From a virus (taxonomy: Duplodnaviria; Heunggongvirae; Uroviricota; Caudoviricetes): DNA of 56,879 nt. Made by a program: the position numbers. Within the stretch, counting starts at the first letter, position 1. Each line of letters starts with the position of its first letter. Below, piece by piece: positions 27,001 through 33,000 of the stretch. The stretch is from IMG/VR virus record IMGVR_UViG_2541047887_000008, one strand, 5' to 3'.

Positions 27001-30000
27001 GTAGCCCGTTCCCACCGCTGACGTGGTGTATGACACACCTGTTGTGATTTTTTCCATCTGGTACATACCCCGTCTCCCGTTATCCGGAAGCTGACAACAA
27101 TAAAAAAAGCCACCAGTTAAGTACTGATGGCTCTGATAACTCATGCAGGCATCTCAGACGACCCACTGACACTACCGGTGAGTTTAACGATACCTTCCAT
27201 TTGACTGGCTCACTTTTTATGATGATACCGGTGCATTTATCTCCAGCACCAGACTTTCTATCTCAACGCCATACGTTGCATTTTTGGTAATATCCGTCAG
27301 CGTCAGTGCATTTAGTCCCACTGTCAGACTGTCTTTTATGACCTGGAATGCCGGGCCAGCCACTCCATTCAGTTTCGGAGTAACCGTGGCACTGCCGGCG
27401 GTGAACACCAGCTCCAGCGTCTGCCAGTCGTTACTGTAATTCCCGAACTCGCCCAACTTTGTGTTTCCGGCTTTCTTGTGATGCATCAGATTCAGTTTGC
27501 CGTCTGTGGTCTGGGTGAAGAACGACATCAGGAACGGGTTACCAGTCCCGGTCATCGCCACGACGTCAGGTAACGCTACATCGGTATACAGATAAATTCC
27601 CAGACCGAACTGGTTGTTGGTCAGTGCGCCTGACAGTCGAAACTTACAGCTCAGTCTGCCACCCCGTGTCAGCAGGGAGACTGCGTCATCCACCGGGCGC
27701 GTCAGGGACCAGGCTTTATTGCTCTGCTTGGTGATCTTAAATACACCATCTGACAACTGAATTCCGCCATTCTTAATGCTCCAGCCCTGCGCAGCAGCAT
27801 CTCCGGCTGTCGGCAACAGGGAGATTGTGCGTACGGATGCATCTTCAGACGGCCCCGATGGCGTGTCGACGCCGGGCGAGGGTTTGATTTCCGGTGCCTT
27901 ACCACTGATGAAGGCTGAGGTGCGCCCGGCTGCGTTCAGAATAGCGGTTGCCATACGATCCGGAATAATGCTCCTGCGCGCCCATGAACTGAAATGTGTC
28001 GGGCGGTTTGATGATACCTGGTTTCCATTCGTTCTCGATGCCGCACCGTAATATCCTGATGCCGGAATATCCGGATCTTCTGCCGGTGCGTTAGTGGCGG
28101 TATTGACGCCGTTACCGTCTGTCATGAAGGGCACAAAATAAACGCCCTCACTCTCCCTGTTTTTATACCCTCCGTACACGGTGTCGTACTGGGTAGCGTA
28201 TGTATTTTTCCAGTAATACGTCGTGTCACCACAAATCCACGGTACAACTGCAGCACTGCCGCCATGGCACTGCGCGTTAAATCCGGAAAGGTCAGTACGG
28301 AACTGCTTCAGCATGGCCGTGAACAGGTCCGGTTGCTGTGCGTAGGTGGCAGCGCTCATGTCAAATTCGCCCTGCATCCAGCACACCGCCAGCAACACAT
28401 TTTTCGGGTTCTTCTGTAATGCAGCTTTAGTGCGCGCAATCAGGTCCTGATATAGCGGTTTACCCACACCCCAGCGTGCCGAATCCTGGCTGGCCCCCGC
28501 GTCCGCACTGAATGTCCCCTCCGCGCCCTGGGTGAATGCCGAACCACCACGACAGCATGGTACCAGCAGGATCCCCGCGTTATTCGGGATATACGGGAGC
28601 AGTTTTTTGGCAATATGTAAGCCCTGGCCGACACAGCCGTACTGCCCTTTGCTCAGGTCTGCCTTCGGATGATTCAGCGTACTCATATCCTGCACATCAT
28701 GCAGACAGTGGTCAGCCGGGATGATGTCGTTATACGTACAACTCTCTCCACCCGGAGTTACCGTGCTGCGGCGCGCCAGCTGTTTAATGCGCGGATCCGG
28801 AGCATCGTAAGAATCCGGTAACGGAAGCCCTTCACCGTAGGCCATGCCGTTGGACTGTCCGGCAAGCACAACCACGTAGAACCAGTCCGGCTCAGATGAA
28901 GGGCCGACCTGTGGATCTCCTTCAATAGCCACCGCCTGCATCAGTGTGTACGGCGTAATGGCAACCGGTCCGCCATATGGCTGCCAGCCCTCTTTCAGTT
29001 TGTGTGTCAGCTTTTCCGCAAGGTCTGACGGCGACGCCGCCCTGACAACATCATAGTGTTTAAATGCCATGAATCCTCCCGGCCGGGATAATATTGTGAG
29101 TAAAATGAGGAGCGGGCTGAAGTCCGGAAGTTACAGGACAATGGCAGAAGAGAGACAATAGCCCGCAATACGAAAAAGGCCGCGCTATTGCGCAGAGTGA
29201 TTACTGTCGGATATTATTCGCCAGCTGAAATATTACTTCACGTTTTGTTGTTTATTCCTTGCCGCCCGCGTCTCCCTGCGCGGGATTTTTTTGTCCATAA
29301 GAAAGCCCCTCCGGAGAGGGGCTGGAGAGTGGCGCTATGTGCCATTGCATGGTGCCGGGTGCCTCCCGGTGAATTCAGTACCAGCACCTGAATCCGCGAT
29401 TATCCCATATACCTACTCGCTGATTGCCCCTCCGCACAGGGGGATTCACCATGCCAGTTTCTTTTAACAAACTCCCCGCAAAACAGACAACTGTCAACCG
29501 TCTGAATTGTGAGACATTTAAAAAAAAGGCCCGCAAAAGCGAGCCAGGGAAAATAAGTGTGGCGCGTTGTACTGGATTCGAACCAGTGACCGATTGCTTA
29601 GAAGGCAATTGCTCTGTCCGGCTGAGCTAACAACGCAGGGTACAGATAATGGACCGCCATCGAGGACTCGAACCCCGCGCAACCAGCTTCGAAGGCTGGC
29701 GCTCTATCCTGATGAGCTAATGGCGGTATGTGATGGTGGCCCTTGCTGGATTTGAACCAGCGACCTGGCGATTATGAGTCGCTCGCTCTCACCACTGAGC
29801 TAAAGGGCCGCGCGCAGAATAATAACGTTACGGAATTAATACTGCAATCTCATCCGTTTCAAACGATTAAATCCTGAACTTCCCTGACTGTCTGCTCAAA
29901 ACGTCCGGTCTCCAGCTCAACACCAATCGCACGACGCCCCAGTGCCATCGCCGCTTTTACCGTTGAACCCGACCCCATGAAAAAATCCGCAACCAGATCA

Positions 30001-33000
30001 CCAGGACGACTACTTGCGCTGATTATCTGCTGCAGCATTTCTGCCGGTTTTTCGCACGGATGTTTCCCGGGATAGTACTGCACCGGTTTATACGTCCACA
30101 CATCGGTGTACGGCACCTGCACCGTCACACCGAAATACCGCCGCAAATTTTTATATTCACTCAGCAGTTCCATATACTGCCGGTTCAGCTCACTGTATGT
30201 GCTGACCAGCTGGTGGTGTGGCTTTTCCAGTTCCCCGCGCTGATGTTTCTCTTCTGCCACCCGGGCAAACAGCGACTGTAATTTCAGATAATCGCTTTCG
30301 TTCGGTAGCTGCCACTGACTGGCACTGAACCAGTGCGGCACCATGTTTTTCTTTCCTGTGGCATCTGCAATCTGTTTTGCCGTTATCCCCAGGGCAGCGC
30401 GCGCATCACGAAAGTAAGCAATCAGCGGGGCCATCACATGCTGTTTCAGTGCCCTGCCCTTCGCCTCATACCCGGCATCTTTCGGACGATACGGCCCCTG
30501 ATAATGTTCCGCGAACAGAATGCGCTCTGTGGCGGGGAAATACGCCCGCAGGCTTTCCTTGTTGCATCCGTTCCAGCGTCCGGACGGCTTCGCCCAGATA
30601 ATATGGTTCAGCACACTGAAGCGTTCACGCATCATGATTTCGATATCAGATGCCAGGCGATGACCACAGAACAGGTAAAGACTTCCGGCAGGTTTCAGCA
30701 CCCGCCAGAACTGCGCCAGACACTGGTCCAGCCACTTCAGGTAATCATCGTCGCCCTTCCACTGGTTATCCCAGCCCTCAGGCTTCACTTTAAAGTACGG
30801 CGGGTCCGTAACTATCAGGTCAACAGAATTTTCGGGTAACGACCGGATAAATTCCAGGCAGTCGGCGTTGATTAACTCACAACTGGATATTTTTACAGTA
30901 TTAAGCATGGATCATTAAGCCTGTCTCTGATAGGCTCATTCTGCTTTTGCGCAAAGCAGTGGGCCTGAGGTTTGCTTGTGAACCCAACGCATGAGCAGAT
31001 GGCTGGCAGGTGCCGCTAACACCCACCAGCCGCCCATTACCACAAATAAAAAAGCCTTCACTGAGGAAGGCGTCTGTAACAACCGAACTGATAATCTGCC
31101 AGACCCGCCATAACAAGCTGGGTCAGTATTAACTGGCAACGTTCGCGTGAAAGGTAAGTATTATGCGCAATTTCCCCGACGGTCGCCGGTTCGGTGACGC
31201 TTAATTCATTAAACACCACTCTGGCAGTTTCGGTCATATCCTGCTGTTTTAGCATGCCTTTTCCCTTTTCTGGTTAACGTGACATACCAATAACTCTTGT
31301 CGAAAAAGCCAGCAAGCTGAAAGACCGATATTAATAACTACCAGCGCGTTTAATGTACCGCACTTCGGGCATCAAAAAACCCGCTCAATGGCGGGTTTAA
31401 TTAATGAGGTAACAACCTTAACTTGTTTGATTCTGTACTTCAGTGGCCTTCTTCCCTTCAATACCTGCCTTGAAAGTCTCGAATGTTTCAACATTAAACA
31501 GCGAAAAAGATTCGATCTGATCGAAGGGCAACACATGCCTAAACTGATAAACTGACAATGGCTCAGAAGTTAATGTGATACCCTGACTAAGGTAGTAGTC
31601 CACATAATTATGCTCAACACAAAAAGTCAGAGTATCTTTATCTCTGTACCCGGACATAAAAGGGATTAGCACCAATGTGTTAGTATCTAACTGATTGAAA
31701 CGTGCCTCATCAATCATCCCCACATAGACCTTGCGAGACTTCAGTGTAACCAACAATAACAATCCACGCTCAACTGATTCAAGAAGGATATTTTCCACGG
31801 CACTATGAGCCGCAATTTCTTCAAAAATAGCCTTGCGCTTTTGTGGGTCTTTATGGTTTTTGGTTGCCTCTGATGCCTTCCCGATACTTACAATAATAGT
31901 GAAAGCTATCGACATAGCAGGGAACATGCTCAACCCAAACACTTGCATTTTGAGAAAGTCATGGGCGAAAGTAAAGGGAGCGTACCAACCAAACAAGTAC
32001 GCTGGAATGTTCCAAAGTGACATTCCAGCGTACAGAACAACAACCAATAAGGCAGCGATAAGAATACCACTTATGAGAAACTCACCACCTTTCAGTGCAA
32101 CATCAAAGTATGCATTCCAACCGATCGCTTTGCTTTGACGGTATCGTGACGGCAAATGGCAGTTGGTATAGTGATAACCACAAACTAAAACAATAACAAT
32201 CAGCGCAGCCCACATAGAAGACTAACCCTTCTTCTTAGTACTCAATCCCTTAATATTGGCTGCGAAAGCCTTTTGCACATCAGCGTTGTTGCGATTCAAA
32301 ACCATCGAACCATTACTATCAATGAAAAACTTGTCACTTTCATGCTTAGCTTCTTTTCCATCACACATGGAAGCTATATCTGCAATTTTTTTGATGATCT
32401 TCTCAGGTGAGAGGATCGCGCGAGCGGCAAGTGTTAGATATTTCGGCATGCTCCCCTCCGTTAACAGATAAAACACAAAAAGCACACAAACAAAGTATGC
32501 GCACATCCTAACCTATGTGGCTAACAACCACTTTCTTTTATAAGATGAGTGTATTACCTAAAGGGTAACTCGGCAATAGCAGAATAGTTTTAGCAAGGTA
32601 AAATCGATGGTCTTTCGCTCAACTTACGACAAAAGATAGCCCGCTCAGCAGCAGGCTTTGTTTAGTTTGCCATCGTGTACAAAATCAGCAAAATATCAGA
32701 TTTACACGAAATGTACGCGATTTAATTGACTTTTGCAATAACCCGCCGCGAAAAGGTCGCTTTTTGTTGCGATCTTGTTTTCATGGTATAAATCAAAGAT
32801 TCGTTGTCGAGGTTCTTAAAAATGTCGCACATATCACGCCAGTAGTGCGCATAATTGTGGCTCCAGTTGTCTGACTTAACTCCACACAGTCTGGCAAGTT
32901 CCTGTCGCTGGTAGACGTCACACCCAGTAATCCTCCCCCTGACATCCTGCGCCGCCAGCCAGATTAATTTCTTCAGACGCTCAAGCGTTTTCCCTGTAAT

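What the first reader, a model, noticed from the sequence alone, without database searches (positions are those of the whole stretch)
29859..31255. Orphan DNA methyltransferase with a small upstream winged-helix-like gene
A 349-aa methyltransferase (DPPY motif N-terminal, F.GSGS motif C-terminal) has no adjacent restriction endonuclease. It is preceded by a 65-aa possible DNA-binding protein and follows a terminator, so the pair may be a separate transcription unit. A phage-borne orphan methylase could protect phage DNA from host restriction or act epigenetically in the lysogen.
Basis: partly seen in the sequence, partly recalled or inferred. Interest (0 to 1): 0.45.

Follow-up and report, generated by a model that had tools for sequence, protein, structure and literature searches.

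The report
Non-specific phage adenine methylase, gated by RNA
The gene is essentially M.EcoGII, the already characterised prophage enzyme that methylates any adenine, but it comes with a conserved small winged-helix gene and an apparently undescribed folded RNA leader that pairs with the methylase start codon region and probably keeps this toxic enzyme off until the phage grows lytically.

Summary
The 349-aa ORF (29859-30908, minus strand) has DPPY at 35 and FMGSG at 310. The 65-aa ORF (31058-31255) is a conserved gene with a confident winged-helix model. No nuclease gene lies next to them.

The methylase is already known. It matches the published M.EcoGII sequence, the non-specific N6-adenine methyltransferase of E. 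coli O104:H4 prophages, at about 348 of 349 residues. M.EcoGII is reported as silent in lysogens and harmful when expressed.

The gene sits in a stx-less lambdoid prophage between antiterminator Q and the tRNA/lysis genes. In Stx phages the same block lies just upstream of stx, so the late transcript must cross it.

New here is a conserved module: terminator, promoter-like box, winged-helix gene, 138-nt spacer, methylase. The spacer is non-coding and has no Rfam match. It folds into a covariation-supported three-helix RNA: 29 of 38 pairs show compensatory changes across 61 sequences. One helix pairs the bases just upstream of the SD-less AUG.

Best reading: a late anti-restriction hypermethylase whose translation is gated by its leader, analogous to Mu com-mom. 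The trigger and the role of the small protein are unknown.

The parts
29859..30908 (-). M.EcoGII-type beta-class N6-adenine DNA methyltransferase, 349 aa
   Evidence: ORF. Pfam PF01555 at E=1.9e-44. DPPY at 35 and FMGSG at 310, and about 348/349 identity to the published M.EcoGII sequence once evident OCR errors are set aside. 94.8% identical to the phage 1720a-02 methylase that the M.EcoGII paper names as a close relative.
30909..31046 (-). Conserved structured 5' leader RNA of the methylase. P1 is 31037-30991. P2 pairs 30985-30975 with 30919-30909, the bases just before the AUG. P3 is 30967-30932. A possible alternative helix pairs 31000-30994 with 30976-30971.
   Evidence: The spacer keeps its length (134-153 nt, one exception where the small ORF is cut short) and its sequence in 34 loci. 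It is not coding. RNAalifold and pair counts on a MAFFT alignment give 93.9% paired cells and 11 compensatory pairs. The model-fitted alignment of 61 sequences gives 91.8% paired and 29 of 38 compensatory pairs, against 44% or less in slid controls. The window MFE is -69 kcal/mol, z=-3.2, with the AUG paired. No Rfam family matches.
31044..31071 (-). Terminator-like hairpin (P0) that overlaps the stop codon of the small gene, followed by a U-run
   Evidence: Pattern scan and MFE fold. Present with compensatory stem changes in Enterobacteriaceae loci and absent in Proteus and Providencia.
31058..31255 (-). 65-aa winged-helix protein (phrog_331; named 'TrmB family transcriptional regulator' by PGAP)
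   Evidence: AF2 pLDDT 88 with an H-H-H-beta-beta fold. Foldseek matches to winged-helix domains. A methylase homologue follows it in 32 of 34 genome loci; in one of the other two the contig ends first.
31279..31316 (-). Conserved promoter-like or operator-like box, CTTGCTG-N12-AGAGTTATTGGTATGTCAC, 23-60 nt upstream of the small gene's ATG
   Evidence: Nearly invariant in all Enterobacterales loci and in Plesiomonas. Replaced by other sequence in clades with a different small winged-helix protein. The -10 region is a poor sigma-70 match and the scan did not call it.
31373..31398 (-). Intrinsic terminator that marks the 5' edge of the conserved module
   Evidence: Read directly in the sequence. 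A hairpin plus T-run is conserved at this position across genera. Homology to Stx phages begins here.
29560..29809 (-). Three tRNA genes (CAT anticodon, annotated Ile in RefSeq; Arg-TCG; Arg-TCT) at the 3' end of the conserved block
   Evidence: ARAGORN, Rfam and RefSeq annotation. Same order in Stx phages, where stx follows.
32722..33417 (-). Antitermination protein Q. It defines the start of the late region that contains the module.
   Evidence: Pfam PF06323 at E=1.5e-83 and RefSeq annotation. A putative late promoter, TTGCAA-17-TACATT, lies at about 32739-32711 and a terminator-like site at 32657-32638. The promoter assignment is my inference.

Best explanation
The 349-aa gene is an allele of M.EcoGII, the sequence-non-specific N6-adenine methyltransferase of lambdoid prophages. 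It lies in the late region of a stx-less lambdoid prophage, in the same orientation as Q and the lysis genes. The published enzyme is silent in lysogens and harmful when expressed. The most likely role is therefore methylation of a large fraction of the adenines in replicating phage DNA late in lytic growth, so that progeny resist many host restriction systems. Expression appears to be gated by a conserved module: a terminator, a promoter-like box, the 65-aa winged-helix gene, a terminator-like hairpin over its stop codon, and a roughly 138-nt structured leader. In the leader, a long-range helix (P2) pairs with the nucleotides just 5' of the methylase AUG, which has no Shine-Dalgarno sequence. 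By default this should hold translation down until something opens it. A second pairing that cannot coexist with the base of P1 and part of P2 suggests a two-state switch. Shown: the identity of the enzyme, the gene order, the co-occurrence of the parts, and the RNA structure with its occlusion of the start region. Inferred: late timing, the anti-restriction role, the regulatory function of the leader, and its trigger. Candidate triggers are the winged-helix protein, the methylase itself, upstream translation, or none at all, in which case the leader simply damps translation.
For: Identity: the sequence matches M.EcoGII from the SUPREM supplement except at four places, three of them machine-reading artefacts. 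The paper gives the same 349-aa length and names phage 1720a-02 as a close relative; 1720a-02 was the best phage hit. Context: Q, tRNAs, esterase, holin, lysozyme and terminase are all co-oriented. In 1720a-02, phiP27 and Stx2a_WGPS2 the same block lies between Q and stx. A review abstract states that stx is co-transcribed with the late genes (PMC8065619). Silence in lysogens and toxicity are reported in PMC5778455. Module: the small gene is followed by the methylase in 32 of 34 species-level loci, and the upstream box and terminator are conserved. Leader. It lies directly 5' of the methylase in 51 of 69 diverse IMG/VR loci, or 5' of a Com-like ORF that precedes the methylase. Alternative helix. 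Precedent: Mu mom and the non-specific methylases Hia5 and Hin1523 are late and toxic, and are controlled, or proposed to be controlled, at translation by a small protein encoded just upstream (PMC3299994).
Against: No expression or methylation data exist for this prophage. Anti-restriction by M.EcoGII has not been shown in a phage infection in the papers I read. The leader might only damp translation or stabilise the mRNA and not switch at all. The alternative helix has weaker support: 81-87% of cells paired and 3-4 compensatory pairs. The winged-helix family is mostly acidic to neutral (pI 4.4-6.9 in 15 of 17 members), which is unusual for a nucleic-acid-binding regulator. Three hand-checked loci (L178, L124, L180) carry the leader and methylase with no recognisable small gene. 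The late promoter in this window is assigned by eye only. The identity figure rests on a machine-read supplementary table.
Confidence: 0.72

Rival explanations
1. The winged-helix protein is a subunit or modulator of the methylase. It might be an inhibitor or antitoxin-like partner, or a specificity factor that redirects the enzyme, for example towards RNA. It would not be a gene regulator.
For: Tight gene linkage. The family is mostly acidic to neutral. The top structural matches are the winged-helix dimerisation domains of SAM-dependent O-methyltransferases. There is a precedent in Stx phages: the MT-A70 methylase M.EcoPA8orf6770P co-purifies 1:1 with the upstream winged-HTH protein PNB-2, which directs it to 16S rRNA (PMC10810198). 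M.EcoGII can methylate RNA.
Against: M.EcoGII is fully active alone in vitro and in vivo. Some clades lack the small gene. The winged helix is a ubiquitous fold, so the structural matches carry little weight.
Confidence: 0.25
2. The winged-helix protein is a DNA-binding controller, analogous to the C proteins of restriction-modification systems. It would act on the conserved box upstream of its own gene and so time transcription of the pair from a dedicated promoter.
For: The box CTTGCTG-N12-AGAGTTATCTGTATGTCAC is conserved wherever the RCQLILTQL-type protein occurs and differs where the small protein is of another type. The predicted third helix, where winged-helix proteins usually contact DNA, is invariant. 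Weak Pfam hits to TrmB and DprA_WH. The module begins after a terminator.
Against: The protein is acidic. No dyad symmetry is evident in the box. It is not an Xre-type HTH like the known C proteins. The co-variation of box and protein type could simply reflect shared ancestry.
Confidence: 0.3
3. The leader is a metabolite riboswitch, with SAM or SAH as the obvious candidates for a methyltransferase gene.
For: A multi-helix architecture with strongly conserved nucleotides at helix ends and junctions, an apparent alternative pairing, and occlusion of the start site.
Against: No match to any known SAM or SAH riboswitch class, or to any other Rfam family, even at E up to 10. It is hard to see what a late-lytic phage gene gains from sensing SAM. 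In Mu and Mu-like phages such genes are controlled by a protein.
Confidence: 0.08
4. The methylase acts in the lysogen as an epigenetic regulator.
For: Orphan methylases such as Dam and CcrM can be regulators. A different Stx-phage methylase affects spontaneous induction.
Against: M.EcoGII and M.EcoGI give no detectable methylation in the lysogen, and constitutive expression is harmful. A non-specific enzyme cannot write a site-specific epigenetic pattern. Here there are terminators both upstream of the small gene and between the two genes, and the start site is sequestered.
Confidence: 0.05
5. The conserved spacer is not an RNA structure. It would be a small protein-coding gene or a DNA-level site instead.
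For: An invariant AUG or GUG opens a 33-codon ORF in the window. The top of P3 is a palindrome that could serve as an operator.
Against: The ORF from that AUG runs from 4 to more than 45 codons and its stop falls at scattered positions. Compensatory changes occur in every helix. G-U pairs exist only on the methylase-sense strand.
Confidence: 0.04

Closest known systems
M.EcoGII (and M.EcoGI) of E. coli O104:H4 C227-11; Murray et al. 2018, PMC5778455
   Same: Same length, 349 aa, and about 348/349 identical residues. Same beta-class motif order, prophage location and orphan status.
   Different: One probable substitution (Q244 here, K in the published table). The host prophage is a stx-less lambdoid in another strain background. 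The upstream small gene and the leader RNA are not mentioned in the parts of the paper I searched: 'upstream' and 'tRNA' each occur 0 times.
Phage Mu com-mom operon
   Same: A toxic, late, promiscuous adenine-modifying anti-restriction gene. A small gene lies immediately upstream, and an RNA structure hides the translation start (for Com as translational regulator; the start-hiding stem-loop and Com's binding to the mRNA are from my own knowledge of Hattman and of Wulczyn et al.). One clade of M.EcoGII relatives even has a Com-like zinc-ribbon ORF between the leader and the methylase.
   Different: Mom is not a methyltransferase. The small protein here is a winged helix, not a zinc ribbon. The leader is far larger, with three helices. 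No activation has been shown.
Hia5, Hin1523 and Nma1821, the non-specific adenine methylases of Mu-like prophages (Drozdz et al. 2012, PMC3299994)
   Same: Phage-borne m6A methylases with little or no sequence specificity. They are silent under laboratory conditions, are proposed anti-restriction functions, and have proposed translational control.
   Different: A different methylase subfamily, with DPPY near residue 194 rather than 35. The phages are Mu-like rather than lambdoid, and the partner is Com.
M.EcoPA8orf6770P-PNB-2, a two-subunit methylase of Stx phages (Gong et al. 2023, PMC10810198)
   Same: A Stx-type phage methylase preceded by a small winged-HTH gene, itself preceded by a terminator.
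   Different: That enzyme is MT-A70 with a DPPW motif and sits elsewhere in the phage. This window has no DPPW ORF. Its partner binds the enzyme and directs it to 16S rRNA, which has not been tested here.
C-protein-controlled Type II restriction-modification systems
   Same: A small helix-turn-helix-like gene upstream of, and co-oriented with, a restriction-modification enzyme gene.
   Different: There is no endonuclease. The fold is a winged helix rather than Xre-type. No C-box dyad was seen.

Membership tests
Beta-class N6-adenine/N4-cytosine DNA methyltransferases (Pfam PF01555) | Significant match to the family profile | tested here: met
   E=1.9e-44, 152.7 bits against a cut-off of 26.7, over residues 29-340. 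PDB relatives include RsrI, CcrM, MboIIA and DpnA.
Beta-class N6-adenine/N4-cytosine DNA methyltransferases (Pfam PF01555) | Motif order: catalytic motif IV (DPPY) N-terminal, target-recognition region in the middle, SAM motif I (FxGxG) C-terminal | tested here: met
   DPPY at 35-38 and FMGSG at 310-314.
M.EcoGII (non-specific adenine methyltransferase) | Near-identity to the characterised protein | tested here: met
   349 aa against 349 aa. Differences occur at four places. Three are artefacts of the machine-read table: HH for HI and RRR for RR recur in other rows of that table, and one stretch is scrambled. That leaves one probable real difference, Q244K.
M.EcoGII (non-specific adenine methyltransferase) | Methylation of adenine in any sequence context | not testable with these tools
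   Needs enzyme assays or methylome sequencing. It is inferred from sequence identity only.
M.EcoGII (non-specific adenine methyltransferase) | Prophage-borne and silent in the lysogen | tested here: inconclusive
   The prophage location is confirmed. Silence is inferred from PMC5778455 and from the terminators and the sequestered start site. There are no expression data for this strain.
Type II restriction-modification system | A cognate restriction endonuclease gene adjacent to the methylase | tested here: not met
   The neighbours are a winged-helix gene, tRNAs, an sRNA, an esterase, a membrane protein and Q. Of the four proteins scanned (methylase, small protein, 265-aa and 94-aa ORFs), only the methylase hits a PADLOC restriction-modification model.
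Mu com-mom type translational control | RNA secondary structure that sequesters the translation start of the modification gene | tested here: met
   P2 pairs the 10-11 nt before the AUG, all 9 P2 pairs show compensatory changes in the 61-sequence alignment, and there is no SD in the aligned loci. In the window's MFE fold the AUG itself is paired.
Mu com-mom type translational control | A Com zinc-ribbon activator encoded just upstream | tested here: not met
   The upstream protein is a winged helix. A Com-like ORF occurs only in a distant clade, and weakly: PF10122 at E=8.4e-4, 19.2 bits, below the 22.9 cut-off.
Mu com-mom type translational control | Binding of the small protein to the leader relieves the repression | not testable with these tools
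   Needs RNA gel shifts and reporter assays.
Known RNA families (Rfam 15), including SAM and SAH riboswitches | Match to a curated covariance model | tested here: not met
   The best hit on the leader strand is 14.7 bits (a microRNA model, E=4.7). Nothing comes near a gathering score.
MT-A70 two-subunit phage rRNA methyltransferase (M.EcoPA8orf6770P-PNB-2) | MT-A70 catalytic domain with a DPPW motif | tested here: not met
   The motif is DPPY and the family is PF01555. There is no DPPW ORF anywhere in the window.
C-protein controllers of restriction-modification systems | An Xre-type HTH protein that binds a dyad C-box upstream of its own gene | tested here: not met
   The fold is a winged helix. 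A conserved upstream box exists, but I saw no dyad in it. Binding was not tested.

The most novel reading that the evidence does not exclude
The 138-nt spacer is a new, widespread class of cis-regulatory RNA. It is found in about 30% of complete E. coli genomes, at up to 6 copies per genome, and in prophages of Salmonella, Klebsiella, Citrobacter, Proteus, Providencia, Plesiomonas and unassigned viral contigs. On this reading it works as a true two-state switch: it licenses translation of a promiscuous, self-toxic methylase only when a specific trans-acting signal is present. That signal could be the co-encoded winged-helix protein, the methylase itself acting on its own mRNA, or a metabolite.
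Probability: 0.4. Interest if true: 0.6.

Novelty: new variant of a known kind. Interest (0 to 1): 0.45.

Why it matters
M.EcoGII is a commercial enzyme widely used to map chromatin and protein-DNA contacts, yet its natural biology is almost undescribed. Its authors could only guess that it is switched on at induction. The conserved terminator, box, winged-helix gene, structured leader and methylase give concrete, testable parts for how a phage keeps such a dangerous enzyme silent in the lysogen and releases it late. In Stx phages this block lies between Q and the toxin genes, so every late transcript that makes Shiga toxin must cross its terminators and structures. The leader is also a strong candidate for a new RNA family. 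It is multi-copy in many pathogenic E. coli and carried no RNA or regulatory annotation in the RefSeq records examined. If the small protein proves to be a partner subunit, the specificity of the native enzyme might differ from that of the recombinant one.

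Tried and rejected
1. Restriction partner. I looked on both sides with Pfam, NCBIfam, PADLOC and PHROGs and found none.

2. Identity with the Koudelka two-subunit rRNA methylase. Rejected: that enzyme is MT-A70 with DPPW, and this window has only one DPPx ORF, which is DPPY.

3. Small ORF or leader peptide in the spacer. The Trp-Trp start MGGWWVL looked like an attenuator peptide. Rejected because the ORF runs from 4 to more than 45 codons with scattered stops.

4. A second competing helix, AUCAG with CUGAU near the AUG. Rejected by inspection: a T/C change on one side is never compensated (alignment).

5. Known RNA families. Two Rfam scans found nothing.

6. Wider diversity with an E. 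coli-first methylase alignment in IMG/VR. This returned only 95-100% identical loci and was useless for covariation. Repeating the scan with the Plesiomonas methylase as query worked.

7. Literature. 'EcoGII' together with 'lambdoid' gives 0 papers. One badly chosen query was wasted. A 2026 preprint on prophage sRNAs never mentions a methyltransferase or methylase. PMC3893438 concerns M.EcoGIII, not M.EcoGII. The supplement of the M.EcoGII paper is not held, so the sequence came from the SUPREM supplement.

8. I could not fetch the C227-11 gene itself for a clean identity figure, and I could not model a complex of the small protein with the methylase.

Full report
**What is at the coordinates**

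On the minus strand there is a 349-aa ORF at 29859-30908 and a 65-aa ORF at 31058-31255, separated by 149 bp.
- The large ORF matches Pfam PF01555 (N6_N4_Mtase) at E=1.9e-44.
- It carries DPPY at residues 35-38 and FMGSG at 310-314. This is the beta-class motif order.
- Its nearest solved relatives are beta-class enzymes such as RsrI, CcrM, MboIIA and DpnA.
- The small ORF gives only sub-threshold hits to winged-helix families: TrmB at E=0.002 and DprA_WH. It belongs to phrog_331, of unknown function.
- The small ORF is nevertheless a real gene. It has 329 homologues; an alignment of 14 of them shows 78-94% identity and conservative substitutions across several enterobacterial genera.
- Its AlphaFold2 model is confident (pLDDT 88) and shows three helices plus a beta hairpin.
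- Foldseek's best matches are winged-helix domains of O-methyltransferases, IclR and MarR regulators, and SelB.

**The enzyme is already known**

The best phage hit for the region is Escherichia phage 1720a-02. The M.EcoGII paper names that phage as carrying a very similar methylase. It also gives M.EcoGII a length of 349 aa and calls it a typical beta-class enzyme on a prophage (PMC5778455).

The M.EcoGII sequence is printed in the supplement of the SUPREM paper (PMC11551740). It aligns with the window protein end to end and differs at four places.
- Three are artefacts of machine reading. 'NHHIWA' for NHIIWA and 'GRRRAIG' for GRRAIG recur in other rows of the same table, and one stretch is scrambled.
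- One, Q244K, may be real.

So the window encodes M.EcoGII or an allele about 99.7% identical. That is closer than M.EcoGI, which is 333/349 identical by the paper's count.

Published properties:
- It methylates adenine in any context, in double- and single-stranded DNA and in RNA.
- It is not expressed during normal growth of the lysogen.
- Constitutive expression harms the cell.
- The authors suggest it is turned on when the prophage launches an infection.

**Genomic context**

The window is a lambdoid prophage of E. coli. Identical copies of the 3.2-kb region occur in five complete genomes.

Reading along the minus strand, the order is:
- RusA, then antiterminator Q (32722-33417, PF06323).
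- A promoter-like TTGCAA-17-TACATT and a terminator-like site at 32657-32638.
- A low-GC pair of ORFs, 94 aa and a 265-aa membrane protein.
- A strong terminator at about 31398-31373.
- The 65-aa gene, then the methylase.
- Three tRNAs at 29560-29809.
- An STnc100 sRNA.
- The NanS-p-type esterase, then holin, lysozyme and terminase.

There is no stx. In 1720a-02, phiP27 and Stx2a_WGPS2 the same block (terminator, small gene, methylase, tRNAs) lies between Q and stxAB. A review abstract states that stx is co-transcribed with the late genes (PMC8065619). The late transcript must therefore cross this block.

The slot between Q and the block is variable:
- nothing in 1720a-02;
- a GIY-YIG nuclease gene in phiP27;
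- two opposite-strand ORFs in WGPS2;
- the 94-aa and 265-aa pair here.

No nuclease gene flanks the methylase in this window. Among the four proteins I scanned against PADLOC (methylase, small protein, 265-aa and 94-aa ORFs), only the methylase hits a restriction-modification model. It is an orphan.

**The pair is a conserved module**

I scanned one genome per species for relatives of the small protein and obtained 34 loci. They come from Escherichia, Salmonella, Klebsiella, Citrobacter, Kluyvera, Buttiauxella, Enterobacter, Mangrovibacter, Mixta, Proteus, Providencia, Plesiomonas and others.
- In 32 of the 34, an M.EcoGII homologue (58-96% identical) follows on the same strand.
- One exception is a contig end and the other a truncated small gene.
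- The distance between the two genes is almost constant. It is 134-153 nt, with one exception where the small ORF is cut short.

Upstream of the small gene, every Enterobacterales locus and Plesiomonas has a hairpin-plus-T-run terminator followed by a nearly invariant CTTGCTG-N12-AGAGTTATCTGTATGTCAC. In the window this box is at 31316-31279. It resembles a promoter with a good -35 and a poor -10.

**The 'empty' spacer is a structured RNA**

The spacer is more conserved than the small protein. It is not coding. The 33-codon ORF in the window shrinks to 7 codons in most genera, and across 61 sequences it ranges from 4 to more than 45 codons with scattered stops.

RNAalifold on a plain MAFFT alignment predicts three elements:
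- P1, a long hairpin: AUGGGCGGCUGG...CCAGCC..GCUCAU.
- P2, a long-range helix that pairs GGUCAC.AAG with CUU..UGAUC immediately before the methylase AUG.
- P3, a hairpin enclosed within P2.

On a MAFFT alignment of 34 sequences, my hand-refined structure gives 93.9% paired cells and 11 pairs with changes on both sides. The same pairs slid by 1-3 columns give 28-45% paired and 3-6 such pairs.

I built a covariance model from this alignment. It found the motif at full length directly 5' of the methylase in 51 of 69 diverse IMG/VR loci. Those loci were retrieved with the Plesiomonas enzyme as query, and their enzymes are 43-96% identical to it.

On the resulting alignment of 61 distinct sequences:
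- 91.8% of cells pair.
- 29 of 38 pairs show compensatory changes, in 228 cells.
- Slid controls give at most 44% paired and at most 47 cells.

This alignment is fitted to the model and so leans towards the structure. However, P1b alone appears in about ten different compensated sequence versions. G-U pairs occur only on the methylase-sense strand.

The window sequence folds the same way on its own, at -69 kcal/mol with z=-3.2. In that fold the AUG and the roughly 17 nt before it are paired.

The aligned loci show no Shine-Dalgarno sequence before the AUG. Rfam 15 has no matching family, even at E up to 10 on the isolated region.

The leader sequence occurs in 1636 of 5426 complete E. coli genomes, at up to 6 copies. 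The only features listed under the matches shown are the two flanking protein genes.

**A possible second conformation**

The 3' strand of the base of P1 (UCNGCU) can also pair with AGCNAA. That sequence overlaps the 5' strand of P2.
- One position of this alternative helix shows C-G, U-A, A-U and U-G.
- Overall, 87% of cells pair on the MAFFT alignment and 81% on the 61-sequence alignment, with 3-4 compensatory pairs.
- The covariation score is twice that of shuffles.

The two pairings cannot coexist, which is the geometry of a switch. The evidence is weaker than for P1-P3, and I rate it as probable, not shown.

**What the small protein does is open**

Arguments for a regulatory role:
- Its tight linkage to the methylase.
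- The invariant stretch RCQLILTQL.MAGL, which is the third helix of the model.
- The upstream box changes when the type of small protein changes.

Arguments against a simple nucleic-acid binder:
- 15 of 17 family members have pI 4.4-6.9.
- The conserved core of the leader stays the same across clades whose small proteins differ.
- Three hand-checked loci (L178, L124, L180) have the leader and methylase but no recognisable small gene.

A partner-subunit role is therefore a live alternative. It is encouraged by the Stx-phage MT-A70 enzyme, which needs the upstream winged-HTH protein PNB-2 to target 16S rRNA (PMC10810198). That system is a different enzyme family (DPPW) and is absent from this window.

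**Closest analogy**

Phage Mu's mom gene and the non-specific methylases Hia5, Hin1523 and Nma1821, which replace mom in Mu-like prophages, are late, toxic, anti-restriction functions. A small gene (com) lies just upstream of each, and translational control is shown for mom and proposed for the methylases (PMC3299994).

The module here has the same logic with different parts.

In one distant clade of M.EcoGII relatives, a 41-aa Cys4 ORF sits between the leader and the methylase, and its AUG lies in the 3' strand of P2. Its best Pfam hit is Zn_ribbon_Com, at E=8.4e-4 and below the family cut-off.

**Verdict**

- What appears to be new is the conserved module around the enzyme, above all a covariation-supported leader RNA that occludes the methylase start site.
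- The enzyme by itself is ordinary and known. The regulatory RNA lifts the interest to moderate.

Noticed in passing
window 29293-29483 (minus strand): A strong match to the prophage sRNA family STnc100 (RF02076): 139 bits, E=9e-32. It sits downstream of the tRNAs, where stx lies in Stx phages. A 2026 preprint links STnc100 to the PasD sRNAs.
   Followed up: partly
window 31418-32506 (minus strand): A low-GC (0.41) gene pair lies between Q's terminator-like site and the methylase module. It comprises a 94-aa ORF and a 265-aa protein with hydrophobic, apparently membrane-spanning N-terminal stretches (phrog_3630, function unknown). Neither has a Pfam, NCBIfam or PADLOC hit. Only 14 of 5426 E. 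coli genomes carry the whole arrangement. It may be a moron or a superinfection-exclusion gene.
   Followed up: partly
L003 (phiP27) 5954-7183; L004 (Stx2a_WGPS2) 5982-7545: The slot between Q and the methylase module is a cargo hot spot. phiP27 carries a 409-aa GIY-YIG nuclease family gene there and WGPS2 two opposite-strand ORFs, while 1720a-02 has nothing. I did not examine whether the phiP27 nuclease relates functionally to the methylase.
   Followed up: no
L164 1362-1484; also L162, L166, L173 and L182 at the equivalent place: In a distant clade of M.EcoGII relatives, a roughly 41-aa Cys4 zinc-ribbon ORF (MTKLIELRCYKCGAKLCEF...KCKRCK) lies between the leader RNA and the methylase. Its best Pfam hit is Mu Com, below threshold at E=8.4e-4. 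Its AUG lies in the 3' strand of helix P2.
   Followed up: partly
window 32638-32739 (minus strand): Just after Q's stop codon there is a good sigma-70-like TTGCAA-17-TACATT, followed about 55 nt later by a terminator-like hairpin (32657-32638). This would fit a late promoter with a short terminated transcript. The assignment is by eye only.
   Followed up: no
L031 about 5001-5216; L026 5339-6376; L021: Signs of decay in some hosts. In Mangrovibacter yixingensis the small gene is cut to 22 codons while the leader and methylase stay intact. The Providencia sp. Me31A methylase has an in-frame stop. One Enterobacteriaceae locus has a truncated small gene and no methylase.
   Followed up: no
window 29734-29809 (minus strand): ARAGORN calls the first tRNA Met (CAT anticodon), whereas RefSeq and the Stx-phage records call it Ile (ileZ). 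This is the usual ambiguity of a lysidine-modified CAU anticodon.
   Followed up: no
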